Assembly (NCBI GenBank): GCA_001786395.1
Contig: MFWN01000024.1
Coordinates: 27,697-73,493, forward strand
Length of the DNA stretch: 45,797 bases
Direction of reading: 5' to 3'
Source of the DNA: Candidatus Pacearchaeota archaeon RBG_13_36_9
GTDB lineage: Archaea; Nanobdellota; Nanobdellia; Pacearchaeales; GW2011-AR1
Shown: positions 25,092 through 40,400 of the stretch, one piece after another
How the letters are laid out: each line of letters opens with the position of its first letter
Position numbering within the stretch: the first letter of the stretch is position 1
Program-made: the position numbers and the translations under genes
The notes under the pieces: model-generated
Database searches by the model: none
Seen by the model: only the letters and a program-made list of their open reading frames with translations
Told to the model about the DNA's origin: nothing

Positions 25092-25571
25092 TTATTTTCC
25101 TTCTACTTTATCAAAGAAATTGAATATTTTATTTAATAATTCTTCTCCTTTTGTTTTCGGACTTAAAGCCACTATCTGCACATCCTTCTCAGAGGCATAT
25201 TCTGTCATTTTTTTAACAAATTTAGCTACGCTGTCTTCATTATTAAAAATTAAGAGGGTTGATAAAGCATCTATAATAAGAAATTTTTCTCCTTTTATCC
25301 CTTCCATAAATGCACCAACAGCAGAATCCAGCAAGTCTAATCTGTCTGGAGCAATATGCAAAACATCATCTCTTGTCTTTTTTGATGTAACACAGTCTAT
25401 GAACAATATTTTTTTAGTGTTTATCTTGTTTTTGGTTAAGCTTTCTTCTATGCTTTTTTGAGTTTTGTTTAAGGAGATATAAATTCCAGTTAACTTTTGT
25501 ACTGTCCTGATTTTTTCAATTATCCTGGCTTGCAGTTTTTCAACAGAAGTTATTATTAAAGTGGAGCTCAT
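25092..25571 (-). CDS. P-loop-less KaiC/RecA-like (DUF835-like) protein, cassette B
   Basis: It has the same architecture as 17917..18438 (GIYISLNKTQKS, KFLIIDALSTLL). Its stop is 1 nt from the start of 24533..25090. Confidence 0.6.
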   Translation of the reverse strand: MSSTLIITSVEKLQARIIEKIRTVQKLTGIYISLNKTQKSIEESLTKNKINTKKILFIDCVTSKKTRDDVLHIAPDRLDLLDSAVGAFMEGIKGEKFLIIDALSTLLIFNNEDSVAKFVKKMTEYASEKDVQIVALSPKTKGEELLNKIFNFFDKVEGK

Positions 25572-25605: not shown

Positions 25606-25965
25606 TTATCCAATCATCTTTTTTATCTTTTCTATCAAATCTTCTTTTGTAAAAGGCTTTGTTATGTAATCTGAAATTCCTGCTCTTTTTAGTTCTTCCA
25701 TTCTTTCTGATGATACTGGTATTGCGCTTAAAAAGGCGAACTTTGATTTTACTCCTTTTTTGCTTAAATTCGCAAAGATGTCCCAGCCAGACATATCCGG
25801 GAGCATGATATCCAGCAAGATAAGGTCAAAATTCTCCTTTTCAATTATTTTTAGCCCGTCTTTCCCGCAGGAAGCTATTTGAGAGTCGTAGCCTGCAACA
25901 TCTAAAATCATTTTTACAGCTTCTGCAGTGTCTTTATTGTCTTCGATATATAGGATTTTCTTCAT
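25606..25965 (-). CDS. Stand-alone CheY-like receiver (119 aa)
   Basis: IEDNKD, LLDIMLPDMSG and KPF motifs are present. It lies 2 nt downstream of the kinase. Confidence 0.9.
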   Translation of the reverse strand: MKKILYIEDNKDTAEAVKMILDVAGYDSQIASCGKDGLKIIEKENFDLILLDIMLPDMSGWDIFANLSKKGVKSKFAFLSAIPVSSERMEELKRAGISDYITKPFTKEDLIEKIKKMIG

Positions 25966-25967
25966 GT

Positions 25968-27932
25968 TTAAGACTTTCCTCCTTTCAATTGTTTTTTCTT
26001 TATAATTTCTTTTATTTGTGAATCAAATTTTGCAAAGGGGTCGGGGTAATTTCTGTTTTCAATTTTTTTGCTGCTTATATCTTCTGCTTTGCGTTTAATT
26101 GGAAGAGTGAAAGTAAAAGTTGTCCCTTTTCCTTGGATGCTTTTAACTTTTATTGTCCCTCCATGCGCTTCGACTAATTGTTTGGTTATTGATAATCCAA
26201 GGCCAGTTCCCCCATATCTTCTTGAAACCGAAGCATCTACTTGATAGAACTTTTGAAATAAATTTTTTATTTTTTCTTCTGGAATTCCTAATCCCGTATC
26301 TGAAATATCTACTTCAATAAATTCTCCACTTTGCTTTGCTTTGATAGTTATACTTCCTTGGTCTGTAAATTTTATTGCATTAGTAATAAGGTTATTTAAG
26401 ATTTCTTTTATTCTTGAATCGTCAACTTCTATTATCTGGAGTTTTTCTATTTTTGTAATTATTTTGAGGCCTTTTTGATTTGCAAGGATTTGTAATTCAT
26501 CAACTACATTTTTAATTAATTTTTCTAAATCTACTCTTACTCTTGTCAGTTCAAATTTTCCAGAATCCATTCTGGCTATTTCCAGAATATTTGAAATAAG
26601 CATTTTCAGGTTATTTGCGTTTCTTCTTATTGCTTCAAGGCTGTTTAACTCTTCTTTTGTCAAGTTCTTTTTCATGTCATCTAAAACATCCAGATGGGCA
26701 ATTATTGCAGTAAGGGGGGTTTTTAATTCATGAGATACTACATTTAAGAATTCGGATTTGGATTTGTCAAGCTCTTTTAACTCTTCATTTGCTTTTGATA
26801 TGTCTTCCATCATGTTTAAAATAGCTATTTTTGTGTTGCTGATGTCTTTTGTTTTTTTATTTACTTCTCTTTCCAGAGCCTCTCCTTTTTCTTTTTCAGA
26901 TTCTAGGAGCTTTTGCTGGTATTTTTCCAAGTTTTGTGCCATTAGTTCAATCGAGCTTATTAGTTCTTTAATCTCCCCTTTTGCATTTATGCCTATCTTT
27001 TTATTTAAGTTTCCTTTTCCAATTTCTTTTGTGATACTTACTAGTTCAGAAAGTGGGCGGGTAATGTTTTTAGATAAAATTCTGTTGAATATAAAAATAG
27101 TTAAAATAAAAAGGAGGCCCGTGGACCAGATTAAAATCAGAAAAATATTTAGGGTGTTTATTCCTTCTTTGTAAATTTCTCTTGGGAGTGTTGTTTCAAC
27201 AACAACTGCTGGATTTTCTTCTATATCTTTTATTAGGAAATATGTCTGTATCTCTGTCTTATTTTTTTCGAGATATTCTATGTTAGATTTTAGCGCCTCT
27301 TTTGCTTCGGGATTTTTGAATTGCTCGTAGGAAATCATATTTATCTTAACCCAAACTAAACTTTCCAGTTCTTTTATTTTCTCTTCATTTAGCTTGTACC
27401 CTATGGTTAAAAATCCTGCGGAGGGGCCTTCCTTATTGCTTCTTAATATGGGTTGGGAAGAAATAATCAAAAAATAATTTTCTAGAACTTTTAACCCAGT
27501 TACATTTGTTGTTTCAAATTTTTCATAATTATTGGATAGGTATTCTTTTATGCCTTTTACTTCAGATTCCGCTAGTTCTGCGCGGTTTATAAAATAAAAT
27601 ATGTCCCCCGATGTATTTGTAAAAGACATAAATTCAATATTTAGATTAGCCAGTGTTTCATCGTTTAAATTTGAGACTATGTAACCAGGATATTCATTTT
27701 GTATGAATAAATAAGTGTCATCCCAGTCTGCCCAATCTACAGAACTAGACCTCACTATTTCAAATTCTTTGTTAATAGCTTCTTGGACTCTTTTGCAGTT
27801 AATATTTGCATTTTCATTTTCTAATTTCGAAAAGCTTTTGTTTATTGTAAAGTAGGAGAACAAGGAAATTATAATTAACATGATGAGAGTTATGGAAATG
27901 TTTATTGCAATCATCTTGTTTTGGAGGTTCAT
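25968..27932 (-). CDS. Membrane sensor histidine kinase: TM-CHASE4-TM-HAMP-coiled coil-HisKA-HATPase
   Basis: CHASE4 hallmarks are VDWADWDDTYLFIQ and SSQPILRSNKEGPSAGFLTIGYKL. HAMP reads ITRPLSELVSITKEIGKGNL. The H-box is FLNVVSHELKTPLTAI, and the N/G boxes are NLITNAIKF, DTGLGIP and GGTGLGLSI. Confidence 0.9.
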   Translation of the reverse strand: MNLQNKMIAINISITLIMLIIISLFSYFTINKSFSKLENENANINCKRVQEAINKEFEIVRSSSVDWADWDDTYLFIQNEYPGYIVSNLNDETLANLNIEFMSFTNTSGDIFYFINRAELAESEVKGIKEYLSNNYEKFETTNVTGLKVLENYFLIISSQPILRSNKEGPSAGFLTIGYKLNEEKIKELESLVWVKINMISYEQFKNPEAKEALKSNIEYLEKNKTEIQTYFLIKDIEENPAVVVETTLPREIYKEGINTLNIFLILIWSTGLLFILTIFIFNRILSKNITRPLSELVSITKEIGKGNLNKKIGINAKGEIKELISSIELMAQNLEKYQQKLLESEKEKGEALEREVNKKTKDISNTKIAILNMMEDISKANEELKELDKSKSEFLNVVSHELKTPLTAIIAHLDVLDDMKKNLTKEELNSLEAIRRNANNLKMLISNILEIARMDSGKFELTRVRVDLEKLIKNVVDELQILANQKGLKIITKIEKLQIIEVDDSRIKEILNNLITNAIKFTDQGSITIKAKQSGEFIEVDISDTGLGIPEEKIKNLFQKFYQVDASVSRRYGGTGLGLSITKQLVEAHGGTIKVKSIQGKGTTFTFTLPIKRKAEDISSKKIENRNYPDPFAKFDSQIKEIIKKKQLKGGKS

Positions 27933-27933: not shown

Positions 27934-29259
27934 TTAATCTATTTGGTATCTCTTGGGCTGGCCTCGTTGATTTAGCAATTCATTTATTTCTTTTTTTAAT
28001 TCAACCATTTTAAGCTCTCTTCCTACTGCAAACTGGTTAAATTTTTCAAGCTCTTCTGCCCTTTCTTTTAACTCTTCTTCTGCTTTCTTGCGCTCGGTGA
28101 TATCCCAGAAAATGCCTAATATGCCAATAACGTTGCCTTTTTCATCCTTGACAGGGGTTTTTATCGTATGGACAAATACCTTTTTCTCATCTTGTATATA
28201 CCCCTCTTCTATATCTTCCATCTTGTCTGTTTCCATAAGTCTCTTATCATCTGCTCTATATTTTTCAGCTAATTCTTTAGGAAAAAAATCAAAATCTGTT
28301 TTTCCGGTAATTTCTTTTGGTTTAATTTTCAGGTCTTTAGCATAATTTTCATTGCAAGATATATAAACTAAGTTGCTATCCTTTAAGAAAATTTTCTGCG
28401 GAATATTTTCAACCAATAATCTGTATTTTTCTTCGCTTTCTTTTAATTCTTTTTCTGCTTTCTTTCTTTCTGTTATATCTCTAAAGAAGCCCAACATTAT
28501 CTTTTTACCTCTAATCATCACCTGGCTGCTGGTTATATCACAATAAATTACTTTTCCATCTTTTCTTAATACTGGAAGATTTTCTGCAGTTGTTATCTTT
28601 CCTTCCCGCTGTTCTTTAAATTTCTCTATCACTAAGGGTAGGTCTTTTTTTGGATGGATTCCCGTAATGCCCAGTTCCAGGATCTCTTTTTCAGAATATT
28701 TAAGCATTTCCTGGATTTTTTTATTTGCAGAGATAAAGTTCTTCTTCTCTGCATCTGCCACAATAATTCCTTCTGCAGCCTCATCAAATATCACCTTGTA
28801 TTTTTCTTCGCTTTCTTTTAATTCTTTTTCTGCTTTTTTTCTTTCTGTTATATCTTCTCCGGAGCTTATTGTTCCGGTTATTTTGCCTTTATCATCTTTT
28901 AACAGGGTGCTATGCCAAGAGATTATTTTTTCTCTTCCTTTTTTTGTCAGGACCAGATTTTCAAAAAATTCTGTGTAGTTTAATTCTCCTTTCATTAATC
29001 TATTAAACACTACGTGGACTTCTTTTCTTTTTTCTTTTGGAATGCAAGCATCAAACCAATTCTTTCCAATTAGCTCTTGTTTTTTATATCCAAGAAGTTC
29101 GCAGCCTTTTTTATTTATTAAAACAATTGTTCCGTTTGAATCAAGAAAAACGATTAAAGAATTAATCAAGTTTAATAATTCTTCAGCTGATTTATTGTAA
29201 ATACCTTCCATCTTCCCTCTTTTTTTATAATCTATTTTTGAAATTTTCAATTTCTGCAA
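27934..29259 (-). CDS. Soluble triple-PAS sensor protein with no kinase domain
   Basis: It has three PAS units, each followed by DITERKKAE(K/E)ELKE.. linkers, and the C-terminal coiled coil VGRELKMVELKKEINELL. Its stop is 1 nt from the kinase start. An alternative start is M17 (nt 29211). Confidence 0.85.
   Translation of the reverse strand: MQKLKISKIDYKKRGKMEGIYNKSAEELLNLINSLIVFLDSNGTIVLINKKGCELLGYKKQELIGKNWFDACIPKEKRKEVHVVFNRLMKGELNYTEFFENLVLTKKGREKIISWHSTLLKDDKGKITGTISSGEDITERKKAEKELKESEEKYKVIFDEAAEGIIVADAEKKNFISANKKIQEMLKYSEKEILELGITGIHPKKDLPLVIEKFKEQREGKITTAENLPVLRKDGKVIYCDITSSQVMIRGKKIMLGFFRDITERKKAEKELKESEEKYRLLVENIPQKIFLKDSNLVYISCNENYAKDLKIKPKEITGKTDFDFFPKELAEKYRADDKRLMETDKMEDIEEGYIQDEKKVFVHTIKTPVKDEKGNVIGILGIFWDITERKKAEEELKERAEELEKFNQFAVGRELKMVELKKEINELLNQRGQPKRYQID
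28422..28480. repeat. Copy 1 of a near-identical ~58-bp repeat (PAS linker coding sequence)
   Basis: tgtatttttcttcgctttcttttaattctttttctgctttctttctttctgttatatct differs from 28798-28856 by essentially one base. Confidence 0.8.
28798..28856. repeat. Copy 2 of the ~58-bp PAS-linker repeat
   Basis: The offset of 376 nt equals one PAS unit. Confidence 0.8.
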
Positions 29260-29779
29260 AAACCGGCTTCGGATTTTCTGTTTTTAGATTATTAATTATC
29301 TCATTGAACAACTGTATTGGGGAATTTTTTATTAAAGAGTTGTGAGAGAAAGTGAAAAGTTCTTTGTTTTCAATAAAATTATGCAGTTCTTTCTTTTTTT
29401 GGGGAGAGTGGAAAAATGAATCCATCTCATCTACATCCCGAAACCCATAGAGCATGGCGTGAGTTAAACTTCCGTGAGGAAGCCTGAACACTTGGATAAT
29501 GTTCGGAGTTTCTAAGAGCTTTTTTTCTGTTTCAAGCTCTCCTTTATCTAATCCTTCTTGCGTTAACTTAGCTAATGCAACTGCAAATGTCTTAATGCCC
29601 AGTTTAGAATAATTAAGATTTACGGTATAAGAGTCAATCAAGTTTTTCTCTAGTTTTCTTCTTATTTTTCCAACTGCCTGGCTTGAAATTTTTAGCTTTT
29701 CTGCTATCAGGGAATCAGAGACTCTCGCATTTTCCAATAAAAACTTTAGAACTTTTTTTTCGTTTTTTGTTAGGTTCAT
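29225..29779 (-). CDS. Lrp/AsnC-family transcription regulator (184 aa)
   Basis: The N-terminal HTH is EKKVLKFLLENARVSDSLIAEKLKISSQAVGKIRRKLEKN and is followed by a RAM-like alpha/beta domain. It is the first gene of cassette B and is divergent from 29964. Confidence 0.7.
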   Translation of the reverse strand: MNLTKNEKKVLKFLLENARVSDSLIAEKLKISSQAVGKIRRKLEKNLIDSYTVNLNYSKLGIKTFAVALAKLTQEGLDKGELETEKKLLETPNIIQVFRLPHGSLTHAMLYGFRDVDEMDSFFHSPQKKKELHNFIENKELFTFSHNSLIKNSPIQLFNEIINNLKTENPKPVFAEIENFKNRL

Positions 29780-29963: not shown

Positions 29964-32900
29964 ATGAGCAGATTATTTGTTAAAAGGGTTTACAGTCAAA
30001 ATCTTGTTTTAGGAGCAGGTATAGTGTTTCTTCTCAGCATTACTTTCATTTTGCTTATTCTTCCCAAGTTTAATATGTTCGCTGTTCAGTATTCTGATGC
30101 TGAAAAAATATTAATTCCAGAAGTTGGCGCAGAAAAAGAAATTGAATATTATGGATATAAATATTCAAACAGTTCAGGGATTATTGTTTCTGCCCTATCA
30201 GAGATTCATTGTTCCTGGAAAAGCGCAGGGGAAGATGATAGCTGGAAGGAATGTGAAGCTGTTTTTGAAATAGAAGATAGCAATAGGGTAAAAAGCAGGC
30301 TATATTCTCCCAAGGTTGAGCTTAATTTTGCAGATAAAATAAATGTAAAAAATATTGAAATAAGCTATTCTCAAGATTTTGAGATAGAGCGTGAAACTTA
30401 TATCCAATCAGGTGCAGAGGAGACTGCCCAGGAAGTTGGCCGTGGCAAGGAAAGGAAAACAGGCTTATTTTCTGCATCAAATCAGGGAAAGCTTAAAAGG
30501 CCGGTAGAAAGGACTTTAGAAACTGAGAAAAAGGTTTTTCTGAAAGATGAAAAATTAAGCTTCAAAAAGAGAAAATTTACTGATTTTTCAGACTTTTCTG
30601 AATCTGTTACTGAGAATCATAATCTCTCTTTGAGTAGCTCCACAGAGGGAGTTTCCCCTCCTGTAAGGGGGGAGATTTCTGAGCAGAACCTTTCAGGGAG
30701 TTATCAGGAATCAGAAAACAATGGGTCTAATCTAGAGACTAATAATTCTGGTTCAAACGTTTCTGCTCAGAAATCTTTAGAGTCTTCAGATAATTTTTCT
30801 GAAGCTCTTAAGAATTATTCAGAGAATTATGAGGAAGGGTCTCAAGGACACAATCTCCTTTCAGGATTTTCTCTTTTTAGTGATACGGAGTTGAGTACAG
30901 AAGAGCCCTTTGCTGTCAGAGTTAGATTTGAGATTCCTAAATACTCTTCCAACCAGTTTGACTTTAAGATTTATGAGGAAGGATTTGAGGCTTCGATTGA
31001 TCCAGATGTTTCTGGGTGCGGCAGTTTGGACTCTGAAAATGGGGTTTATTTGCTGGAGGAAGACGTTGAAGCGGCACAAATCTGTTTTATCATCTCTGAG
31101 AATAATATTACACTTGATTGTCAGGGGCACAGGATAACCTATTCTTTTTCAGGAGAGGGGTATGGAATATATTCTTCTGCAAATTTTACGACAATAAGAA
31201 ATTGTTTTATTACAGATGGAAATTTTACGGGCAATGGAAGTGCAGTTTACCTTTTAGATTCGGAAAATAGTTTAGTAGAAAATAACACAATTTTAACTTA
31301 TCTAGATTACCTCGAGGGAGTTTATGTTAGCGGAGATTCTAACATTATAACAAATAACAACATTACCACTTATGGCAGATATGCTTATGCTGTTTATTTT
31401 ACAAATTCTTTTAATAATTCAGTCATTAATAATTCTCTGAGAACTTATTATTGGGATTCTTATGGAATCTTTCTTGATTCTAGTTCTGGCAACCAGATAC
31501 GCTGGAACAATGCTACAACTTTTGAAGCAGAGGCTTATGGGATTCGGATGTACAACTCTAGCTACAATCTGGTCAGCTACAATAATATCACTGCAATTGA
31601 AGAGTTAGGATATCCTTTTTATCTTGCATCTGACTCAAATTATAACAATCTATCAAATAATGAGCTTGCAGTTTATGTTAAGGATAACGCTGCAATCTAT
31701 GTTGATTCAGATTATAATTATTTTAAGAGCAATAATCTAACCAGCCATGGAAATGTAGCATTTGGAATACATATCCGGCCAGAGGCAAGCAACAATACTT
31801 TTCAAAATAATCAGATACTTACTTATGGAGATGATAGTTATGGTGTTTATTTTGAATCTGGCTCCAACAATGTCTTTTTAGATAATATTTTTGTTACTCA
31901 TGGTTATTATGGATTTGTTTTTTTGATTTCAGGCTCAAATTTCAACTCTTTTTTTAATAACTCTCTTTTTACATATGGGTTGTGGTCCCCCTGTGTTTTA
32001 ATTGAGGGGCCTTCAAATGGGAATTTATTTTCAGGTATTAGGGCAGTAACAAATAATTCCTTTTCTGAAATATTCTACGCCTATAATTATTATGTTAACT
32101 TTTCAGTCCAGGACAGTTATATCAATGCTTCTTATCCTGCAACAGAAGAAGTTTATTTAGAGTCTTCATTAACTGACAGTGTGTGGAATTTTACTAATGT
32201 AACAACCTTTGATTCTAGGTGGGATATTGCGACCAGCGGAGAGTTGATTGTTTCAAATTATCTTGACATTTTTACAAATTTCACTAATGGCTCTTATGTT
32301 TCTGCAGACATCCTCTTATCAGATAAAAATTTTAACGAGATTTTTTCAGGGCAAACTAATAGAAACGGGAGCTTAAGTAAGATTCTTCTAGATTATATCC
32401 AGAACACCCCCGATAATATTACAGGATATTCTAATTATTCATTAAATGTTTCTCTTGGATGGGAATCTTTCAGTCTATCTCTAAATTTGAGCCAGAGCCA
32501 CTCTTTATTCTTTACTTTTGATTCGGGGCTTTATCAGCAATACAACGAGGAAGTTTATCCTAGAATCAGTTTTATGGATCCTACACCTGCAAATGAGACT
32601 ATACGAAACAGTACTTCTTTCTTTGTAAATGTAACTGCAAATGACTCTGAATCAAATATCTCGATGTTTATGGATTTTGATGGCTCCTTGCTTGGGTGGT
32701 GGAGAATGGACGATATCGGAGAGAGAGGAGAGATTCTTGATTATCTTGGCAGAAATAACGCCGCTGCGCACGGAAACGCAAGACGGTCTTCAGATGGAAA
32801 GCTTGGCAAAAGCTTTATTTTTGAAGGAAATGGAGATTACATTAACCTTGGAAATAGCAGTATCCTTTCTCTCGAGCATAATTTTTCAATTTCTTTTTGG

Positions 32901-34127
32901 GTAAAGACTTCAGATTCTTCTGGGCAGCCTACATTTATCGGGAGGGTAGATGAAGGAGGGGAGTATGTAAGCTATTGGTATATTGGGAAAAAAACTGGAG
33001 AAGGCAGGGTAGAAGTGGGATTAGGAGACGGGGTTAATTACTCTATTTTTCACTCAATAAGAGATGTAGACGACAATCAGTGGCACCAAGTGATTTGGAT
33101 AAGAAATGACGGGGGTCAAGAAATCTACATAGACGGGATAAACAGCACATATGAAGCGAGATTTGATGGCCCCATAGGGGACATTAATATTTCAACAGAT
33201 GTTTATATCGGAGGAGATCCTGAAAGCGAAGACTATTACTTTAATGGTAGCATAGATGACTTACTGTTATTTAATAAGAGCCTATCAAGAGAAGAGATAC
33301 TAGGATTATATGCTAACCAATCTTTAAAGTACATTGGAATTAATTTTACCAATCTGCAAGAAAAAAATTATTTATTCAGAGCATATTCCCAGGATTATGG
33401 TGGGAGGGTTAACCTGACTGAAGAAAGGTTTGTTTTGATTAATTTCAGTTACGCTGAAGCGAATTTTACTAATTCTACAAACTCTACTCCTCCTGCGCCC
33501 CCTGGCGGAGATGGCGGGAGCACGCCTCCTAATTGCATGCCTCTATGGTCCTGTAATCAGTGGTCTGATTGCATAGACGGAAAACAGACAAGAATCTGTA
33601 CAAATCCAGATTCAGATTGTAAAGCACGCCCTGACATAGAAAGAAGTTGTAAAGTTAAAGATATTGAAAAAAATGGCAAAAATGATACTTTATTTGATAT
33701 AAGCCTGCAGATAATTAAGGATAAGATTTTTCCTAATGAAAATTTATCTGTAGCAATGACTTTAATTAATCTGGGCATTCCCGGCAAGGTAAATGCAAAT
33801 TTACATTATAGGATTGTTAGCTCATCCGGGGAGATGGTTTACGAAGAAAAAGAAGTAGTTCCTGTTGAAACTCAGATAGAGTTTATAAAAACGATAAATA
33901 CCTATGATTTGGAACAGGGAAACTACAGGCTTTTAGTAGACTTAAGTTATGAAGGCCAGATAGAGCCTGCAAATGCACAAGGCAGCTTTAGCATAGGCAA
34001 TGGGTTTTTGTTGGGGTCTGTCCAGAGAGTGTTCGTTTATATTTTGTCCCTGTTTTTCTTAACATTAATTTCTTTAACATCATACCTTCTTCTTAGGGAG
34101 CTGAAAAAAAGAAGGGCAAAGTTTTAA
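29964..34127 (+). CDS. Large surface protein (1387 aa): N-terminal TM/signal, Ser/Glu-rich linker, right-handed beta-helix repeats, LamG-like domain, Cys-rich knot, beta-sandwich, TM anchor
   Basis: The PbH1-like repeats run ~31050-32060 (NNTILTY..GVYVSGDSNIITNNNITTYG..AVYFTNSFNNSVINNSL..). The LamG pattern runs ~32650-33320 (LLGWWRMDD..GKSFIFEGNGDYINLG..NFSISFWVK..QWHQVIWIRN..YIDG..FNGSIDDLLLFNKSLSREEI). The C-terminal module is at 33528-34127. Confidence 0.85.
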   Translation: MSRLFVKRVYSQNLVLGAGIVFLLSITFILLILPKFNMFAVQYSDAEKILIPEVGAEKEIEYYGYKYSNSSGIIVSALSEIHCSWKSAGEDDSWKECEAVFEIEDSNRVKSRLYSPKVELNFADKINVKNIEISYSQDFEIERETYIQSGAEETAQEVGRGKERKTGLFSASNQGKLKRPVERTLETEKKVFLKDEKLSFKKRKFTDFSDFSESVTENHNLSLSSSTEGVSPPVRGEISEQNLSGSYQESENNGSNLETNNSGSNVSAQKSLESSDNFSEALKNYSENYEEGSQGHNLLSGFSLFSDTELSTEEPFAVRVRFEIPKYSSNQFDFKIYEEGFEASIDPDVSGCGSLDSENGVYLLEEDVEAAQICFIISENNITLDCQGHRITYSFSGEGYGIYSSANFTTIRNCFITDGNFTGNGSAVYLLDSENSLVENNTILTYLDYLEGVYVSGDSNIITNNNITTYGRYAYAVYFTNSFNNSVINNSLRTYYWDSYGIFLDSSSGNQIRWNNATTFEAEAYGIRMYNSSYNLVSYNNITAIEELGYPFYLASDSNYNNLSNNELAVYVKDNAAIYVDSDYNYFKSNNLTSHGNVAFGIHIRPEASNNTFQNNQILTYGDDSYGVYFESGSNNVFLDNIFVTHGYYGFVFLISGSNFNSFFNNSLFTYGLWSPCVLIEGPSNGNLFSGIRAVTNNSFSEIFYAYNYYVNFSVQDSYINASYPATEEVYLESSLTDSVWNFTNVTTFDSRWDIATSGELIVSNYLDIFTNFTNGSYVSADILLSDKNFNEIFSGQTNRNGSLSKILLDYIQNTPDNITGYSNYSLNVSLGWESFSLSLNLSQSHSLFFTFDSGLYQQYNEEVYPRISFMDPTPANETIRNSTSFFVNVTANDSESNISMFMDFDGSLLGWWRMDDIGERGEILDYLGRNNAAAHGNARRSSDGKLGKSFIFEGNGDYINLGNSSILSLEHNFSISFWVKTSDSSGQPTFIGRVDEGGEYVSYWYIGKKTGEGRVEVGLGDGVNYSIFHSIRDVDDNQWHQVIWIRNDGGQEIYIDGINSTYEARFDGPIGDINISTDVYIGGDPESEDYYFNGSIDDLLLFNKSLSREEILGLYANQSLKYIGINFTNLQEKNYLFRAYSQDYGGRVNLTEERFVLINFSYAEANFTNSTNSTPPAPPGGDGGSTPPNCMPLWSCNQWSDCIDGKQTRICTNPDSDCKARPDIERSCKVKDIEKNGKNDTLFDISLQIIKDKIFPNENLSVAMTLINLGIPGKVNANLHYRIVSSSGEMVYEEKEVVPVETQIEFIKTINTYDLEQGNYRLLVDLSYEGQIEPANAQGSFSIGNGFLLGSVQRVFVYILSLFFLTLISLTSYLLLRELKKRRAKF

Positions 34128-34253: not shown

Positions 34254-34406
34254 ATGAAAGAGAGAGCGAGTTTTACTTGTGACAAGGAAACATTGAGGGT
34301 TCTAGATGAATTAGTGAAATCCGGCAGATACAGGAACAGGAGCCATGCTCTTGAAGAGGCAGTGAAACTTCTTAAGGACAGGGAAAAAAAGGAGGGGCGA
34401 AAATGA
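34254..34406 (+). CDS. Ribbon-helix-helix (CopG/Arc-like) DNA-binding protein, 50 aa, missed by the ORF track
   Basis: MKERASFTCDKETLRVLDELVKSGRYRNRSHALEEAVKLLKDREKKEGRK gives a beta-strand followed by two helices with the typical [RN]RS..[LI]EEA[VI]..[LY]L signature. An RBS-like GAGAGG lies upstream. Its stop overlaps the giant gene start (ATGA at 34403-34406). Confidence 0.65.
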   Translation: MKERASFTCDKETLRVLDELVKSGRYRNRSHALEEAVKLLKDREKKEGRK

Positions 34407-37400
34407 ACAGGAAAAGCATGGCTAAGATAGGAGCAATAAGCATTGTTGCAATTGTTCTTATAGCGATTATTTTGGTGGTGGTGGTTACTTTATTCAGTTC
34501 AGCCTTAATAGACAAGCAGGAATATTATTTGGGAGAGAGCATCAAGTTTAATATGGAGAATCTCGGGGATTACAAGCTTAAGATAACTACTCCTTCGACT
34601 TCTCTGATTAGGCTGGGAAGCAACGATGTTTTTATTTTCAGGCCTCAAGAGGCGGGTAATTATTCTGTGGAGCTTTGGAGAGGCGGGGGGAAACAGGATT
34701 ATTATTTTGAAGTTTTGTGGAATGGGACAGAAAACAATCCACCTGGAAATGAAACTGGACAGAATGATACTGAAGAAAATGAAACTGGCAGTTACGAGGA
34801 AGAAAAGCCTTTTGGATACGATGCAATTAAGATAGGCGAAAGTGTTAACTGGAGCATAGAAAGAGTTATTGAAAGCACTGTGAGAACTAAAATAGTTGTT
34901 CCTGATGCTGCTGAAAATATTAAGGTGTATAAGGCAACTGCTGCAGGAAAACAGGAAATTGAGTTTGAGGTTAGAGATTCTGTTTTTGGCGAGATATTGG
35001 ATGTTATTAACAAAAGAAATGAAAAAGAGGTCATTTTTCAGGCAAGTGGCAGGATTGTTGTTGAGTATACAACCAAAGGGCCAGAAAAGCAGGAAAAAAA
35101 GCTAGACGAGAGAACAAAAGAAATCAAGATAGGCTCTCCAGAGGGAGTTAATTATGAAAATGTCTTGGCTTATACTGAGATAGAAGCCAGCAGCAGGCAT
35201 TTTATCAGTGTTTATTGGAAAGAAGAAAAAAAGTTTGTGGATTTTAGATCTTATGATTTAAATGAAGATGGCAAGGTAGATAGGATTGAGTGGATTGTGC
35301 CCCATTTGTCTGAGCAGACCTTTGAAATAGTAGTGATAAGCAAGGCAGAGCATCTGGATCCTGGGAGAAATTTTATTTCAGATGTTTATAGCAATGTGAG
35401 CGTCAAGGATAGTATTTGGCAGGAAATTCCAGGGGGGAATTATTTAAGAGTAACTTTTGAAAAAAACCTGACAAATGGAAATGATATTACTTTATATGCA
35501 AGAGGAAGCGGAAAAGTAGAGGTTTATGAGAAAAATGGAAATGAGAAATTAATGGAGCTGGATATTAATGGGGAAAACTGGTATAAAGAATATTTCAGAG
35601 AATATTTATTTCAAGACAGTTTTGACTTGCTTATTTTTGGGAGTGTGGAGCTGGATTATGTTATTGACCCTACCCTTACAAATAGCCCTATTGGATATAC
35701 TGATCCGGGAAGTGACTGGGTAAATGAAACAGGGGGTTATTCAGATGGGGGATATTACGCCCAGGCAACTGCCCAGAATAAATACCTTATCTATTATAAC
35801 TATAGTTTCAGCATTCCAACTGGCTCTACTATCAACAGCGTAATGATAAGAGTTGATCAGTGGGCTTCAGATGGAAGTGATTACCATACTGTTGAAGTCA
35901 GCTGGGATGGCGGGGCTGCCTGGGGAAGCGCCACTGCACTTCCTGCCTCTTCAACAGAAAGAACTGATTGGGTGAATGTGACAAGCAATACCACCTGGAC
36001 AGTGGATAAGTTGAACAATACTAATTTTCAGGTGAGATTAAGAACCCAGGCTTCAGGCAAGCCTGCTGATTACTGGAGAGTGGATTGGGTGCCTGTGGAA
36101 GTTATTTATACAGAGCCAATTTCTGCGCTTTCAGTTTCTTTAAACAGCCCTATTGATTACTGGAACTACAGCGCCTATAATGTTTATTTTAATTACACTC
36201 CCTCAAGCACAGGAACTTTCATAAACTGCAGCCTATGGGATAATTCTTCAGGCACTTTTTCTCCGCAGGTTTATAATTCAACTGCGATAATAAATGGGAC
36301 CAGCAACCTTCTAAACAAGACTTATTCTTCAGATGGTTCATATTTATGGAATATAAGGTGCTGTGACAACACTAACTGCACTTTTTATTATTTCAACAGG
36401 ACATTTACGCTAGACACTGCTTATCCCACAGTCAATATAATAAGCCCGCCTGACAACAATTTTTCAGACTCTCCTTATGGAGTTGTTTTTACTTATAATG
36501 TTACAGATACTAGCGGAATTGTTAACTGCTCTCTGGTAATTGATGGAACTTTTGCTGATACAGATTCCACTGTGTCAACTTCTGTAAATCAAAATTTCAC
36601 TTACGGGCTTTCAAGCGGGCTTCATAACTGGAGCGTAAATTGCTCAGATTATGCAGGAAATCAGAATTCAAGCTCTACCAGAACAATTAATATCTCTGTT
36701 GCAGAGCAGGATTGGGGTGCAACGTGGTACGAGACATCTACTTCAACTTACACTTCAACAGCATATATAAACCTTGAGAATGTTAGAGATGGTACTGCCA
36801 ACTGGATGAATGCAACTATTGCTTCTAAGGGACTTTACACAATGGTTTCTGCAACCTCCCCTTTTATGGGCGGGCAGGGCGGCTTGCTGGAAGCAAGCTC
36901 TTCAGTCTCTTTTTTAAGCTACTTCTTAGTCCCAGACAACAAGGGGTATGTTACCTGGAAGGTTTATATTTCCAACAGTTCTGGAGATACATTACTATGC
37001 CAGAGTGGAAATGATGTTACAGGCGGCACAAGAATAGCAACAGTCGGCAGCAACACTTCTGTTTCTGGCTCATGCAACTCTCCTGCTTACGATTTGAGAG
37101 TTCAAGGCACAGACAGAATAAAACTTGTTTTGAATCTTTATAACGATGCGGTTTCAGCAGGGTCTTTTATACATTACTGGGATGACATTTTTCCTTCTCA
37201 GGTCGACTTGGGGAATTTTTCAACCTTGGGGATTCTTTATACAGATTTGTTTGCTCCAACAACTGATTTAAGCATAAACACTGGGGAGCAGTTCAATGTT
37301 TCCTGCGAAGTCAACTGCTCTGTTGGAAGATGCATGAACACTAAAGTTTATGTTCAATACAATACTTCTTCTTCTGACTGGGCAAATGTAAGCAGCTCTG

Positions 37401-40400
37401 GAAACTTAATCTTAGCTTCAGGGCAGACAAACGGGCACAGCTTAGGGAATGTCAATACCACTACTGTCTGGACTAATTTTACTTTGCAAGGAAATGCAGC
37501 CTCGGTAAATAATATAAGGTGCATAGGCATCTCTAATTATTCTATAGACTATGGCGAGACAACAAGGCAAATTACAGTCTCGGCAGCAAATCTTGCTCCA
37601 AATGTCATAGCGGTAACACAAAACAATTACTGGAGAAATGAATCTAGCATTGTGCTTTATTACAATGCAAGCGATGACAATAATTTGTTAGCCAACTGCT
37701 CGCTTTATCTAAACGGGCAATTGAATCAGACAAATTCTTCTGCTTTGCTTGATGCCCAGACAAATAACTTTACTATAAGTGCTATAGCTGATGGTTCTTA
37801 TAACTGGAGCGTGCAGTGTTTTGATACTGCTTCTTTGTCTAACTGGTCGCAGAACAGGACATTTTATATTGATACCTCTTTTCCCGGGCTTATTCTTAAT
37901 TATCCAGGCATAGATGATGTTTTATATATTAGTACTGTTAGTTTCAACTTCACTGCAACAGATAATATGGTTTTGAATATAACCTGCAACCTTACTGTAG
38001 ACGGCAGTGTTGTCGATGCCAATTTTAATGTTACTAATGGGACAATGGTCAACAGGACACGTACGGGGATAGGTATCGGAGACCATCTCTGGAATGTAAC
38101 TTGCTGGGACAGGGCAGGCAATATAAATAAAAGTGAGACAAGAAACTTTACTATAACTGACCTGCCGCCGACTGTTTTGTTGATAGAGCCTAATAACAGC
38201 TACTGGCATAATGAATCGAATATTACTCTTTATTACAATGCATCTGATAATAATAATTTAGCCAATTGCTCGCTTTATCTTAACGGGCAGTTCAACCAGT
38301 CCAATAGTTCTGCAATATTAAACGGAGAGCTTAGCAATTTCACCATTCCTTTTATAGCAGACGGAGAGTATAACTGGACTGTTAACTGTACAGATAATGC
38401 AGGGCTTAACACCAGCTCCTCTAAGAGAACATTTTACATAGATACAATTTTTCCTGAAGTTGATTTGAATGCTCCCCGGGACAATAATTTTTCCTTAACC
38501 TCCAGCGTTTATTTTAATTTCACTGCAACAGATAACCTTGATACAAATTTAACCTGCAACCTTACTATTAACAGCGCAGTGACTGGGGGCAGCAATTTTA
38601 ATGCAAGCAATGGAACGCTTACCAACAAGCTTGTTACTGGATTGACTGATGGAGATAAATACTGGAATGTCACCTGTATTGACAATGCAGGAAACTTAAA
38701 CACGAGCCGGACATGGATGTTAAACGTTACAGTGTACCCTTCTGTTGCCCTGAATACTTCAGATAACTCTTTTTTTAATTATTCTGATATTTACCTTAAT
38801 TATACGCCGAGCGACAATACCAATTTAAGCAATTGCTCGCTTTATCTTAACGGGCAGTTCAATCAAACTAACTCTTCCAGAGTCTTAAACGGGCAGATGA
38901 ATAACTTCAGCCTTTTGGCTGGAAGCGGCTATTATAACTGGAGTGTTGTTTGTTATGACTATATTGGCTTGAAAAACTGGTCTGCAAACAGGACATTTAC
39001 TGTGGACTTGGCATATCCTACTATAAACCTATCCTATCCACTTCCTAACCAGACTATTTATGATGCTACAGTTTATTTTAACTACACTGCCGTAGATGAT
39101 TTAGATACTTCCATAGAGTGCAACTTAACTGTAAATAACAGCGTTCTTAATTATACCTTTGCTGTAAATGGCAGCGTTACTTCAATCCCTATAACTTTCA
39201 CCCGGGGGGGATTTAAGATGTGGAATGTCAGCTGCTGGGACAATGCAGGCAACTTAAATTACAGCGAGACAAGAAACTTTACTCTTTATCTTCCTCCGAA
39301 GGTTAACCTGAGCAGACCTGACAATAATTACTGGAATAATGAGAGCAGCATAGTGTTGTTTTATAACATAACAGAATATAATGCAAACATTGTAAACACA
39401 ACTTTGTATATTAACGGGCAGGTTAACCAGACAAATAGTTCTGAAGTCTCTACCACCGGAGAAAATAATTTTACAATAGAATATTTGGCAGATGGAGCTT
39501 ATAATTGGACAGTTATAGTTAAGGATATAGAGAATCTTATCGGCACAACAGTCAATAGGACTTTTTACATTGATACTTTGCCTCCCAATGTAACCCTTAG
39601 TCAGCCAGGAGATTATTCCACTGTTGACACAAATAATGTCAGTTTTAATTTTACTGTCTATGACAACCTTGCCCCCAACCTGACCTGCAATTTGAGCATT
39701 TCAGGATTTGTTGAGGATGAATTCATGGATATGGTTATAACAGAAGGGCAAGCTACTGCAAGGTATATGCTTCTTCATGATGGAGATTATTACTGGAGCG
39801 TCGAGTGCATGGATCTTGCAGGGAACTATAACATTACAGAAGAATGGAATTTTACAGTTGAAGCACCTCCAAATGTGACTTTAGTTTCGCCTGAACCTGA
39901 TTATAGGACAAACAGCTCGAACATTACTTTTGTTTATTTGCCAGAGGATTATTATCCGATGATTCAGTGCGATCTTTACATTGATGGCTTGTTTAATGAT
40001 ACTGATGAGGGTATAGAAGAAAATGAGAACAACCAGTTCGATGTTTATTATATCTCTGAAGGAAATCATAACTGGACTGTCAACTGCACTGATTCGGATT
40101 GGAACACTTTCCAGCCAGATGTCCGCTTTTTTACAATTGATAAAACACCTCCTAATGTTAATTTGATGCTTCCTTTAAATGACTCTGGAATTGATTTTAA
40201 TGAAGGCAATATAACTTTTTGGTGGAATGCAACAGACCTTTTAGATTCACAGTTGAAATGCGATTTGAGGATAGATGGCAATAAGCAAGGAGCTACTAAG
40301 GATGTAACTTCTGGAACCCCTTATCAGGAAGATATAGATACTTTAACAGAAGGGGGGCATTATTGGAACGTGACTTGCTGGGACAGAGCAGGCAATACTA

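What the first reader, a model, noticed from the sequence alone, without database searches (positions are those of the whole stretch)
33528..34127. Shared C-terminal anchor module on large adhesin-like proteins: Cys-rich W-x-C-x-x-W knot, beta-sandwich, TM, basic tail
The 1387-aa (29964..34127) and 691-aa (21255..23330, module at 22678-23330) proteins have unrelated N-terminal parts. They end in the same ~200-aa arrangement.

First comes a Cys-rich motif: PNCMPLWSCNQWSDCIDGKQTRICTNPDSDC...C versus SCLYNWSCTEWNKCSQEGKQTRTCWNLGTC...C. The pattern W-S-C-x2-W-x2-C-x2-3-G-K-Q-T-R-x-C recalls thrombospondin type-1-like repeats.

Next comes a beta-sandwich: LFDISLQII..LSVAMTLINLG..ANLHYRIVSSSGEMVYEEKEVVPVETQIEFIK..GNYRLLVDLSYEGQ versus LFDIVLTVI..LTAKISLVNYG..VTLNYTITDSNNKTILREKEIVPVEIQNEFIK..GEYKLFVEINYEGQ. 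A single TM and a short basic tail follow.

The beta-sandwich/TM part is the same domain that exists free-standing in cassettes A and B. The signalling cassettes and the adhesin-like proteins therefore share a membrane-anchoring, and perhaps signalling, unit. This suggests the surface proteins are inputs or outputs of the system.
Basis: partly seen in the sequence, partly recalled or inferred. Interest (0 to 1): 0.65.

Follow-up and report, generated by a model that had tools for sequence, protein, structure and literature searches.

The report
Shared stalk-and-anchor module of archaeal surface proteins
Two unrelated large surface proteins of a small symbiotic-type (DPANN) archaeon end in the same cysteine-knot, Ig-like domain and membrane anchor. 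This undescribed module is common on surface proteins of that group, and only some sub-types sit next to signalling genes.

Summary
Proteins A (29964..34127) and B (21255..23330) have unrelated heads. They share about 190 aa: a six-Cys domain, a seven-strand beta-sandwich, one TM helix and a basic tail (BLASTP E 4e-31). The sandwich+TM also occurs free-standing at 17388..17957 and 24533..25090.

An exhaustive profile search finds 7,688 protein clusters. Among the best 153:
- 88 carry Cys-sandwich(-TM) C-terminal to at least 11 unrelated head types.
- 51 carry tandem arrays of 3-14 Cys domains.
- 13 carry the sandwich alone.

Neither domain reaches a curated cut-off in Pfam or NCBIfam. Named genomes are Woesearchaeota, Pacearchaeota and Nanoarchaeia. 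The Cys domain also occurs in one CPR bacterium.

Resemblance to thrombospondin repeats is weak and fails the membership tests. The sandwich is a generic Fn3/MG-like fold.

Best reading: a membrane-proximal stalk plus type-I anchor that is shuffled among glycosylated adhesin-like proteins.

Linkage to P-loop-less KaiC (DUF835-like) genes is not general. It holds for the free-standing form (4 of 4 loci) and the B sub-type (2 of 2). The commoner neighbour is a ~186-aa HTH regulator, usually heading a PAS/kinase operon and transcribed divergently from these genes (6 of 8 informative loci). A conserved promoter-like motif lies between them. This fits the surface proteins being outputs.

The parts
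29964..34127 (+). Protein A, 1387 aa. N-terminal hydrophobic segment, beta-helix/NosD region, Laminin_G_3 lectin-like domain, then the C-terminal module. 56 N-x-S/T sequons (4.0 per 100 aa).
33522..33659 (+). Six-Cys domain of A (residues 1187-1232): C-x3-W-x-C-x2-W-S-x-C-x2-G-K-Q-T-R-x-C-...-C-...-P-x4-S-C
   Evidence: E 1e-20; AF2 block-mean pLDDT 75-94 over residues 1-50 of the model and mean 81 when folded alone; conservation
33678..34001 (+). Seven-strand beta-sandwich of A (Fn3/MG/CARDB-like fold)
   Evidence: block-mean pLDDT 88-98; Foldseek E 2e-6 to GH3 enzyme chains; 1e-5 and weaker to complement C3 chains and the alpha2-macroglobulin domain 2p9r
34029..34094 (+). Single TM helix of A (VFVYILSLFFLTLISLTSYLLL)
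   Evidence: read; the hydropathy scan was run on homologues
34095..34124 (+). Basic cytoplasmic tail of A (RELKKRRAKF)
21255..23330 (+). Protein B, 691 aa. Signal peptide, Ig-like head, C-terminal module. 37 sequons (5.35 per 100 aa).
22677..22823 (+). Six-Cys domain of B
   Evidence: E 2e-27
22830..23156 (+). Beta-sandwich of B
   Evidence: E 1e-52
23220..23327 (+). TM helix (23220-23279) and basic tail (KKSIRENKQSIKYKNG) of B
23323..23841 (+). P-loop-less KaiC-like (iKaiC) gene overlapping the end of B by 8 bp. It is followed by a response regulator at 24050..24406.
   Evidence: no Walker A; ortholog after P0001 in L044
17388..17957 (-). Free-standing signal peptide + sandwich + TM + long basic amphipathic tail (189 aa). 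Last gene of cassette A: HK 18826..20625, RR 18470..18829, iKaiC 17917..18438.
24533..25090 (-). Free-standing sandwich + TM + long basic tail (185 aa). Last gene of cassette B: HTH 29225..29779, PAS 27934..29259, HK 25968..27932, RR 25606..25965, iKaiC 25092..25571.
29225..29779 (-). 184-aa winged-helix (HTH_24/AsnC-type) regulator. It heads the cassette-B operon and is divergent from A across a 184-bp gap.
   Evidence: homologues in the same position in L016, L020, L038, L051 and L054
20697..20852 (-). Remnant (first 41 residues) of the same HTH gene, between the cassette-A kinase and B
   Evidence: E 1.8e-10; also seen in L046
29872..29901 (+). Promoter-like element 63 bp upstream of A. TTTCAACATTAAACTTAT lies inside the inverted repeat ATAAGTTTAA-N10-TTAAACTTAT. 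A related copy lies at 20931-20948 upstream of B.

Best explanation
The ~200-aa C-terminal unit is a conserved, portable stalk-and-anchor module of type-I surface glycoproteins in Woesearchaeota/Pacearchaeota-type DPANN archaea.

**How it most likely works**
- The protein is exported through its N-terminal signal sequence. The single C-terminal helix stops transfer, and the Lys/Arg tail fixes the orientation (positive-inside rule).
- Outside the cell, a compact Ig-like beta-sandwich sits next to the membrane.
- Above it sits a small six-Cys, two-Trp domain, probably held by disulfides.
- Together these two domains form a stiff spacer that holds the variable head away from the membrane. Heads include beta-helix plus laminin-G lectin, Ig-like repeats and others.
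- The module has been recombined onto many unrelated heads. The Cys domain can also be multiplied into long rods.

**What is shown:** homology, the architecture, the predicted folds, the wide distribution, the head diversity and the gene neighbourhoods.

**What is inferred:** the export topology, the disulfides, the spacer role and adhesion as the function of the heads.

**Signalling link.** In two sub-lineages the sandwich-TM unit is tied to cytoplasmic P-loop-less KaiC-like proteins. These are the small free-standing proteins with a long amphipathic basic tail, and the B-type module. There it probably also serves as the membrane partner of a signalling complex.
For: **Homology**
- A against B: E 4e-31, C-termini only.
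- Window-wide phmmer finds the sandwich in four proteins.

**Distribution**
- Exhaustive profile search: 7,688 clusters at E <= 1e-3 and 149 at E <= 1e-30.

**Architecture of the best 153 hits**
- 88 have Cys then sandwich, nearly all followed within about 5-30 residues by one hydrophobic helix and a tail that begins with basic residues.
- Head length runs from 0 to 1495 aa. Heads of at least 150 aa fall into 11 BLAST clusters.
- P0001 and P0002 are the bare module behind a signal peptide. P0007 is Cys + TM only. P0162 and P0157 are sandwich + TM only. The parts are therefore independent building blocks.

**Folds**
- AF2 of Cys + sandwich: mean pLDDT 89.8 with seven strands.
- Foldseek of the whole model matches GH3 enzyme chains (E 2e-6), complement C3 chains and the isolated alpha2-macroglobulin domain 2p9r, and RbmA.

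**Disulfide evidence**
- Of 367 Cys domains, 318 keep all six Cys and 33 lack exactly C2 and C4. Only one lacks C2 alone.

**Extracellular location**
- Sequon density is 4.0-5.4 per 100 aa in A and B, against 1.2 or less in all but one of the window's non-surface proteins (the iKaiC 23323..23841 has 2.3).

**Taxa**
- Woesearchaeota, Pacearchaeota and Nanoarchaeia genomes.
Against: - No experiment or expression data exist. Only DNA metagenome runs hold the sequence.
- Signal peptides and TM helices were judged by a simple hydropathy scan, not a dedicated predictor.
- I could not read model coordinates, so the Cys pairing is inferred from co-loss only. Metal binding by the Cys would give a similar pattern.
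- The adjacency of B to an iKaiC gene, and the conserved cytoplasmic tail motifs in several sub-families, show that in part of the family the anchor is probably more than passive.
Confidence: 0.7

Rival explanations
1. The sandwich-TM unit is primarily a transmembrane signalling element. Its Ig-like ectodomain senses contact, or pairs side by side with the homologous stalk domains of the adhesins. Its cytoplasmic tail recruits the P-loop-less KaiC-like protein, which acts on the response regulator and kinase. The HTH regulator encoded at the head of the same operon then sets transcription of the divergent adhesin genes. The surface proteins would thus be both input and output.
For: - The free-standing sandwich-TM gene follows RR-iKaiC in 4 of 4 independent loci: window twice, L020, and L041-43 from another genome. 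Start/stop overlaps are 41 bp in window cassette A, 4 bp in L020 and L041, and none in cassette B (1-bp gap).
- These proteins share a ~25-aa amphipathic basic tail that A and B lack.
- B overlaps an iKaiC gene by 8 bp. Its head-less relative P0001 is followed after 3 bp by a 69%-identical iKaiC.
- The HTH heading the cassette operon lies divergent from module genes in 6 of 8 informative loci.
- A promoter-like motif is conserved in the intergenic regions of six of the seven units examined (it was not seen in L016): TTTCAAC, a 4-6 base spacer and a TTAT-containing TATA-like box, followed in four units by YGTTAA.
- DUF835 is described as an inactivated KaiC domain fused to receiver domains in archaeal two-component systems (PMC5847659).
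Against: - No KaiC-like or response-regulator gene lies within the sequence held for L015/L048, L017, L018, L019, L038 (four module genes), L040, L045, L001 or L054.
- Tails of A-type proteins are short and not conserved.
- L038 has the HTH with no sensor gene in the 1.3 kb held behind it. L054 and L051 have the HTH with PAS proteins but no iKaiC cassette.
- Loci with the linkage are relatives of one lineage (HTH 58-66% identical), so shared descent explains part of the synteny.
- No interaction was tested.
Confidence: 0.25
2. The Cys-rich part is a true prokaryotic homologue of the thrombospondin type-1 repeat and acts, as TSRs do, as a glycan- or matrix-binding adhesive unit rather than a spacer.
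For: - Shared local motif W-S-x-C ... G-x-Q-x-R-x-C.
- TSP1_ADAMTS is tied with Brr6_like_C_C as the commonest weak Pfam hit, with the best E-value of any family (4 of 62 domains, best E 0.0028).
- 7 of the 10 weak Foldseek hits are proteins that contain TSR or TSR-like domains. The complement C7 and C8-alpha chains (TM 0.49-0.57, 27-28% identity) were identified through. Midkine, pleiotrophin and MIC2 are counted as TSR-like from general knowledge.
- The domain forms tandem arrays, as TSRs do.
Against: - All Foldseek E-values are 1.6 or higher.
- hhalign against TSP-1 TSR2/3 gives 19% probability over 14 columns.
- No PDB sequence match to a TSR, and no Pfam hit at a curated cut-off.
- There are only two conserved Trp (W-x4-W) and one conserved Arg, not a WxxWxxW / RxRxR ladder.
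- One Cys precedes the first Trp and another lies between the two Trp. Co-loss points to a C2-C4 pair, unlike the group-1 TSR pattern (recalled from the literature).
Confidence: 0.2
3. The C-terminus is a sorting signal that is cleaved and replaced by a lipid or cell-wall link, like PGF-CTERM/archaeosortase or LPXTG/sortase signals, rather than a permanent TM anchor.
For: It has the same general shape: a hydrophobic helix plus basic residues at the extreme C-terminus of secreted, glycosylated proteins.
Against: - No PGF, LPXTG or other conserved short motif lies in front of the helix. The linker varies in length and sequence.
- Many homologues carry cytoplasmic tails of 40-170 aa with conserved motifs of their own, which makes no sense for a cleaved signal.
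- No NCBIfam sorting-signal model matches.
Confidence: 0.05

Closest known systems
Thrombospondin type-1 repeat (TSR; Pfam TSP_1 PF00090, TSP1_ADAMTS PF19030)
   Same: A small (~45-55 aa) extracellular six-Cys, Trp-containing domain with a W-S-x-C ... R-x-C motif. It occurs singly near the membrane or in long tandem arrays. The weak best hits by fold and by profile point to it.
   Different: There are two Trp spaced W-x4-W and one conserved Arg, not a Trp/Arg ladder. Cys residues lie before and between the Trp. Co-loss suggests a C2-C4 pair. No significant sequence or structure match was found. Hosts are archaea and CPR bacteria.
CARDB / macroglobulin MG / Fn3-like beta-sandwich domains of prokaryotic surface proteins
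   Same: A seven-strand sandwich of ~105 aa. Foldseek gives E 2e-6 to 5e-5 to GH3 enzyme chains, complement C3 chains and the isolated alpha2-macroglobulin domain 2p9r. The free-standing copies give weak Pfam hits to CARDB, MG2 and DUF4625.
   Different: All matches are below the Pfam cut-offs. The domain has its own strongly conserved motifs (LFDI..., L-I-N-x-G, V-P-V-E-T-Q-x-E-F-I-K, Y-E-G-Q). It has a fixed position directly before a TM helix.
C-terminal anchoring signals of archaeal and bacterial surface proteins (PGF-CTERM/archaeosortase, LPXTG/sortase, TM-anchored S-layer glycoproteins)
   Same: A C-terminal hydrophobic helix plus basic residues that holds a secreted glycoprotein at the cell surface. 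It is shared by many otherwise unrelated proteins of one lineage.
   Different: There is no recognition motif and no sign of cleavage. The unit includes two folded ectodomains, and in many members a sizeable cytoplasmic tail.
Inactivated KaiC (iKaiC, DUF835) modules of archaeal signal transduction (Galperin et al. 2018, PMC5847659; Makarova et al. 2017, cited there)
   Same: The small P-loop-less KaiC-like proteins next to the module match DUF835, DUF7090 and DUF7504; only 17917..18438 passes curated cut-offs (42.3 bits against 33.1 for DUF835), 25092..25571 is just below, and 23323..23841 has only a weak KaiC hit. They sit with receiver domains and kinases, as described for REC-DUF835 fusions.
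   Different: Here iKaiC is a separate ~160-170-aa protein. Its gene abuts that of a sandwich-TM membrane protein: overlaps of 41, 8 and 4 bp in several copies, a 1-bp gap in window cassette B and a 3-bp gap after P0001. I found no such partner described in the text I could read.

Membership tests
Thrombospondin type-1 repeat (TSR) | Significant match to the Pfam TSP_1 / TSP1_ADAMTS profiles | tested here: not met
   No hit for the modules of A and B. 4 of 62 family members hit TSP1_ADAMTS only weakly, best E 0.0028. hhalign against TSP-1 TSR2/3 (sequence verified against 1lsl) gives 19% probability over 14 columns.
Thrombospondin type-1 repeat (TSR) | WxxWxxW tryptophan ladder stacked with RxRxR arginines | tested here: not met
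   Column statistics of 367 domains. Only two conserved Trp, at W-x4-W (99% each), and one conserved Arg (93%).
Thrombospondin type-1 repeat (TSR) | Six Cys, all after the Trp strand, paired C1-C5, C2-C6, C3-C4 (group 1; recalled from the literature) | tested here: not met
   C1 precedes the first Trp and C2 lies between the two Trp. 33 domains lack exactly C2 and C4 together, against one that lacks C2 alone. This implies a C2-C4 pair.
Thrombospondin type-1 repeat (TSR) | Elongated three-strand fold | tested here: inconclusive
   AF2 model pLDDT 81 with short strands. Foldseek best hits are complement C7 and C8-alpha chains, midkine, pleiotrophin and MIC2. All have E of 1.6 or higher and TM 0.47-0.57, except MIC2 at 0.37. 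The aligned region of the large chains is not reported.
CARDB / MG / Fn3-like Ig beta-sandwich | Seven-strand beta-sandwich fold | tested here: met
   AF2 block-mean pLDDT 88-98 with seven strands. 209 PDB matches at E <= 1e-3, led by GH3 enzyme chains, then complement C3 chains, the alpha2-macroglobulin domain 2p9r and RbmA.
CARDB (Pfam PF07705) | Score above the Pfam gathering cut-off | tested here: not met
   Best is the free-standing protein 24533..25090 at 18.5 bits against a cut-off of 22.7. The modules of A and B give no hit.
PGF-CTERM / archaeosortase or LPXTG sorting signals | Conserved short motif (PGF, LPXTG) immediately before the C-terminal helix, with a very short tail | tested here: not met
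   No such motif in A or B. No position-conserved motif was seen on reading about 100 homologue C-termini. Tails reach about 170 aa. No NCBIfam sorting-signal match.
Type-I single-pass surface protein | N-terminal signal sequence, one C-terminal TM helix, basic cytoplasmic side | tested here: met
   Sequences. A hydropathy scan of 153 homologues shows an N-terminal and a C-terminal hydrophobic segment in most. High sequon density in the ectodomain. No dedicated topology predictor was available.
Component of an iKaiC (DUF835-like) / two-component cassette | Module gene directly adjacent to a P-loop-less KaiC-like gene and a receiver gene | tested here: inconclusive
   Met for B, for P0001, and for the free-standing form in the window (twice), L020 and L041. 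Not met for A, whose nearest iKaiC is 4.4 kb away across the divergent operon. Also not met for L015/L048, L017, L018, L019, L038, L040, L045, L001 and L054.

The most novel reading that the evidence does not exclude
The sandwich-TM unit is the membrane arm of a previously undescribed archaeal contact-sensing circuit. A small Ig-like type-I protein, and in the B type the adhesin's own stalk, docks a P-loop-less KaiC-like protein through its cytoplasmic tail. That protein feeds a receiver/kinase pair. An HTH regulator encoded at the head of the same operon then switches the divergently transcribed adhesin genes through the conserved TTTCAAC-(4-6)-TTAT promoter element. DPANN cells would thereby couple attachment to a host or a surface with remodelling of their surface proteins.
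Probability: 0.2. Interest if true: 0.75.

Novelty: new member of a known kind. Interest (0 to 1): 0.5.

Why it matters
DPANN archaea are thought to live attached to other cells, yet their surface proteins are almost entirely unannotated.

- **A handle for annotation.** The module identifies thousands of their surface-exposed proteins and separates the variable, probably host- or substrate-binding heads from a constant stalk. It could be added to domain databases.
- **Two new domain families.** Neither reaches a curated cut-off in Pfam or NCBIfam. The small six-Cys/two-Trp domain also builds long rods in DPANN and in at least one CPR bacterium.
- **A testable regulatory link.** The conserved HTH/PAS-kinase neighbourhood and promoter-like motif suggest how these organisms might regulate their adhesins. 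The iKaiC-linked sub-types offer an entry point into KaiC-like signalling hubs in archaea.

Tried and rejected
- **Word-indexed search, Cys domain only.** It returned nothing at E <= 10. The same tool found only 7 and 14 relatives with whole-module profiles. The exhaustive search was needed.
- **The search for related loci.** A narrower A-type alignment, A6, gave 8 genome and 24 metagenome loci. The locus sample is therefore biased towards A-like relatives.
- **PDB sequence searches.** The module and Cys profiles gave no meaningful hit.
- **Pfam and NCBIfam.** No family for either domain.
- **Literature.** Searches for a description of the module, of TSR-like domains in DPANN, or of DPANN adhesin anchors found nothing relevant. 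The Makarova 2017 KaiC-hub paper is not held.
- **Expression data.** None. Only soil-metagenome DNA runs hold the sequence.
- **Chance or low-complexity similarity.** Rejected on E-values.
- **Recent gene conversion between A and B.** Rejected, because the modules are only ~38% identical in protein.
- **Cleaved sorting signal.** Rejected (see membership test).
Full report
**1. The observation**

The window (about 28-40% G+C) encodes several very large, sequon-rich proteins and three signalling cassettes. Protein A (29964..34127, 1387 aa) and protein B (21255..23330, 691 aa) were translated.

BLASTP between them gives one significant segment, confined to the C-termini (E 4e-31). Every other segment has E >= 7.8. 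Pfam gives them different heads:
- A: Beta_helix/NosD at residues 385-618 and Laminin_G_3 at 955-1112.
- B: only weak Ig-like hits.

33528 is codon 1189, and the first Cys is residue 1191.

phmmer with either module against all ORFs of the window finds the other module (about 1e-29). It also finds the two small proteins 24533..25090(-) and 17388..17957(-) (1e-8 to 1e-15), over the sandwich for both queries and into the TM for module A only.

**2. How widespread the module is**

The word-indexed search found only a handful of relatives, but they were informative:
- P0001 and P0002 are a signal peptide plus the bare module (271 and 272 aa).
- P0007 is signal peptide + Cys domain + TM, with no sandwich.
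- P0003 has a different head and no Cys domain.

The exhaustive profile search over 1.84 billion representatives gave 7,688 proteins at E <= 1e-3, 1,501 at <= 1e-10 and 149 at <= 1e-30.

I split the profile into a Cys HMM and a sandwich HMM and scanned the best 153:
- 88 have a Cys domain followed by the sandwich.
- 51 have arrays of 3 to 14 Cys domains without a sandwich.
- 13 have the sandwich alone.

In the Cys-sandwich proteins the sandwich is followed, after about 5-30 residues, by one hydrophobic helix. A tail then begins with Lys/Arg and ranges from 5 to about 170 residues. The part in front of the module is 0-1495 aa long. Heads of at least 150 aa fall into 11 BLAST clusters (sizes 24, 19, 14 and 3, plus 7 singletons). 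Pfam finds beta-helix/NosD heads in some, and CARDB, PG_binding_1 or Kre9_KNH next to Cys arrays in others. It finds no family for either module domain. NCBIfam has none either.

Genomes with names are Candidatus Woesearchaeota, Pacearchaeota and Nanoarchaeia. One Paceibacterota (CPR) genome carries Cys domains. B itself is encoded identically in assembly GCA_035256385.1.

**3. What the two domains are**

AlphaFold2 with a 36-sequence alignment gives mean pLDDT 89.8. The sandwich blocks reach 88-98 and show seven strands. Foldseek against the PDB, run with the whole two-domain model, matches GH3 beta-glucosidase chains (E 2e-6), complement C3 chains and the isolated alpha2-macroglobulin domain 2p9r, and RbmA. 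Taken with the seven predicted strands and the weak CARDB/MG2/RbmA-FnIII Pfam hits of the free-standing copies, I read this as a generic Ig-like sandwich, with no specific function implied.

The Cys domain folded alone with 62 sequences gives pLDDT 81. Foldseek finds nothing significant (all E >= 1.6). Seven of the ten listed hits are proteins that carry TSR or TSR-like domains. The complement C7 and C8-alpha chains were identified through. Midkine, pleiotrophin and Toxoplasma MIC2 are counted as TSR-like from general knowledge.

Other tests of the TSR idea:
- Scanning 62 domains against Pfam at E <= 10 makes TSP1_ADAMTS one of the two most frequent families, level with Brr6_like_C_C at 4 of 62 but with by far the best E-value (0.0028).
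- hhalign of the family profile against TSP-1 TSR2/3 gives 19% probability. I first verified my recalled sequence against PDB 1lsl. It aligns only W-S-x-C...G-x-Q-x-R.
- Column statistics over 367 domains show six conserved Cys (90-100%), two Trp (99% each, spaced W-x4-W), Gln-x-Arg, Asp, Asn and Pro.
- 318 domains have all six Cys and 33 lack exactly C2 and C4. Only one lacks C2 alone. This is the signature of a C2-C4 pair.
- 21% of domains have an extra Cys at each flank.

The domain is therefore a real, probably disulfide-stabilised repeat. It fails the defining TSR features that I could test: the profile match, the Trp/Arg ladder, and the Cys order and pairing. 'TSR-like' is a lead, not a classification.

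**4. Location**

A and B carry 4.0 and 5.35 N-x-S/T sequons per 100 aa. The other giant proteins carry 6.1-6.5. Nearly all the kinases, regulators and enzymes of the window carry 1.2 or less; the exception is the iKaiC 23323..23841, at 2.3. With the N-terminal hydrophobic segments and the C-terminal helix plus basic tail, this fits type-I, heavily glycosylated surface proteins. The topology is inferred.

**5. Link to the KaiC-like cassettes**

The three small KaiC-like proteins (17917..18438, 25092..25571, 23323..23841) lack a Walker A motif. The true KaiC-like ATPase at 8586..9305 has GPPGVGKS. Two of them match DUF835, DUF7090 and DUF7504: 17917..18438 above the curated cut-offs, 25092..25571 just below. 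The third, 23323..23841, has only a weak KaiC hit. DUF835 is described as an inactivated KaiC domain fused to receiver domains in archaeal two-component systems (PMC5847659).

I built HMMs of iKaiC, the receiver, the sandwich and the Cys domain, and scanned every locus fetched.

*Where linkage holds*
- The free-standing sandwich-TM gene follows RR-iKaiC in the window (twice), in L020, and in L041-43 from another genome (P0162). That is four of four loci. Its start overlaps the end of iKaiC by 41 bp in window cassette A and by 4 bp in L020 and L041; in cassette B the two genes are 1 bp apart.
- These proteins share a ~25-aa amphipathic basic tail, for example KKIIGKLKIKLRIHEIVKKRMKN. A and B lack it.
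- B overlaps its iKaiC by 8 bp. Its head-less relative P0001 is followed after 3 bp by an iKaiC 69% identical to that one.

*Where it does not*
- L015/L048 (P0012), L017 (two module genes), L018, L019, L038 (four consecutive module genes on a 248-kb contig), L040, L045 (P0002), L001 (P0005) and L054 (P0025) have no iKaiC or receiver gene in the sequence held.

The module is a widespread generic anchor, but linkage does recur elsewhere for two sub-types.

**6. A more general neighbour**

A lies 184 bp from a divergently transcribed operon. Its first gene is a 184-aa winged-helix protein (29225..29779; HTH_24, 29.3 bits against a cut-off of 21.9). The operon continues with a PAS protein, the kinase, the receiver, iKaiC and the free-standing sandwich-TM protein.

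Homologues of this HTH (58-66% identity) occupy the same divergent position in front of module-bearing genes in:
- L016/L006 (an A ortholog in a Woesearchaeota MAG);
- L020;
- L038;
- L051/52 (a collagen-like protein followed by the sandwich-TM protein P0153);
- L054. I chose L054 (P0025) as a test of this pattern, and it showed it.

There the HTH heads an operon with a 1428-aa PAS-rich protein. On the other side lie a small 68-aa winged-helix ORF, the beta-helix module protein, a 2348-aa Big_13 protein and a 174-aa gene on the opposite strand. The window has the same order: A, 34403..41350, then 41490..42032.

L018 and L019 have 10 kb upstream without the HTH. That makes six of eight informative loci.

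In the window, a remnant of the same HTH (its first 41 residues, E 1.8e-10) lies at 20697..20852(-), between the cassette-A kinase and B. The window therefore holds two paralogous units of the form [sandwich-TM, iKaiC, receiver, kinase, HTH] facing [module-bearing surface protein].

The intergenic regions of six of the seven units share a promoter-like element: TTTCAAC, a 4-6 base spacer and a TTAT-containing TATA-like box. I did not see it in L016. In four units (both window copies, L038 and L054) the box reads YTTATAT and is followed by YGTTAA (A reads CTTTAA). It lies 63 bp before A, where it is part of the inverted repeat ATAAGTTTAA-N10-TTAAACTTAT, and upstream of B. It also occurs in L020, L038, L051 and L054. 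The stricter search pattern TTTCAAC-N4-AACTTAT, allowing two mismatches, finds six matches in the window against 1.45 expected, and none of 100 shuffles reaches six.

Part of this conservation reflects common descent of orthologous blocks. L038 and L051 were reached through distant sandwich-only proteins and still show it.

**7. Interpretation**

The best-supported reading (about 0.7) is a portable stalk-and-anchor module. The signal sequence exports the protein, the C-terminal helix stops transfer, and the basic tail stays inside. The Ig-like sandwich and the Cys/Trp knot form a stiff membrane-proximal spacer for interchangeable, probably adhesive heads.

The signalling reading (about 0.25 as the primary role, and likely true for the two linked sub-types) has three parts. 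The sandwich-TM unit recruits iKaiC through its tail. The HTH at the head of the cassette operon controls the divergent adhesin genes. The surface proteins are thus at least outputs of the system. No step of this was tested.

True TSR homology (about 0.2) and a cleaved sorting signal (about 0.05) are less likely, for the reasons given in the membership tests.

**8. Novelty**

C-terminal TM anchoring with Ig-like stalk domains is a known kind of arrangement. The two domain families have no Pfam or NCBIfam model that any member reaches. I found no description of the module or its arrays in the literature searched. I rate it a new member of a known kind, of moderate interest. The interest rises if the iKaiC/HTH coupling proves functional.

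Noticed in passing
window 29225..29779(-) and remnant 20697..20852(-); L016 1688..2248, L020 6499..7059, L038 1352..1921, L051 2292..2858, L054 6958..7524: A ~186-aa HTH_24/AsnC-type regulator is transcribed divergently from module-bearing surface-protein genes in six independent loci. In five of them it heads a PAS or kinase operon; L038 has no sensor gene in the sequence held. A truncated copy sits upstream of B, so the window holds two paralogous cassette-versus-adhesin units.
   Followed up: yes
window 29872-29901 and 20931-20948; intergenic regions of L020, L038, L051 and L054: A conserved promoter-like element: TTTCAAC, a 4-6 base spacer and a TTAT-containing TATA-like box (in four units YTTATAT followed by YGTTAA; not seen in L016). 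At A it forms the inverted repeat ATAAGTTTAA-N10-TTAAACTTAT. The search pattern TTTCAAC-N4-AACTTAT finds six matches at up to 2 mismatches in the window against 1.45 expected.
   Followed up: partly
window 21058..21258(+); L038 2252..2485; L054 7805..8011: A small 66-77-aa winged-helix-like ORF (…SITEL…LAKLEGA.KV..RN.GMAKVY…) sits just before the first surface-protein gene. Its stop overlaps the start of B (ATGA). It is too short for the default ORF list.
   Followed up: partly
P0010, P0017, P0019, P0036 and others; L008, L011, L012 (Paceibacterota), L018 37-297: The Cys/Trp domain also forms tandem arrays of 3 to 14 copies without the sandwich, in proteins of up to 1934 aa. Some also carry PG_binding_1, CARDB or Kre9_KNH domains. 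It occurs in at least one CPR bacterium, so the domain crosses the archaea/bacteria boundary among ultra-small organisms.
   Followed up: partly
homologues P0029, P0054, P0057, P0069, P0088, P0090, P0132, P0148, P0156; and P0071, P0117, P0136, P0142: Cytoplasmic tails of some module proteins carry recurring motifs. One is a helical Y..L...Y..L...EK..L.P.I motif. Another is a ~70-aa domain with N-D-F-x-N-W-I-x-D-V-F. Both suggest cytoplasmic partners in other sub-families.
   Followed up: no
L001 6496..6993 (P0005) with DDE transposase at 7190..8143; L001 265..6428 against window 46..7817: P0005 is a sandwich-TM gene that keeps only the last Cys of the Cys domain and has no signal peptide. It lies next to a transposase and is probably a truncated module gene. 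The same contig is syntenic with the left end of the window: a giant Ig-repeat protein plus a 475/523-aa protein.
   Followed up: partly
P0008 (531 aa); L038 2498..11484; L040 1088..3234; L017: Module genes often occur as tandem paralogues. Examples are four in a row in L038, two each in L040 and L017, and two complete signal-Cys-sandwich-TM units inside the single ORF P0008.
   Followed up: no
window 34403..41350(+) and 41490..42032(-); L054 12019..19065 and 19068..19592: The order A-like protein, ~2300-aa Big_13 protein, then a ~175-180-aa gene on the opposite strand is conserved between the window and L054. The window copy of that last gene hits HTH_IclR (24.0 bits against a cut-off of 22); its L054 counterpart has no Pfam hit on record. 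The two small proteins are clearly alike on reading their sequences.
   Followed up: partly
window 18826..20625(-), N-terminal ~100 residues: The cassette-A histidine kinase begins with about seven copies of a 13-aa repeat (…GREEIVGKREHVA…) in front of its PAS domains. Its paralogue 25968..27932 instead has a membrane-bound sensor region.
   Followed up: no
window 7814..10440: A true Walker-A KaiC-like ATPase (8586..9305) is followed by a 384-aa protein without Pfam hits. It is preceded by two divergent ~102-104-aa paralogues (7814..8128 on the minus strand, 8271..8579 on the plus strand). This is a separate KaiC-type unit in the same window.
   Followed up: no
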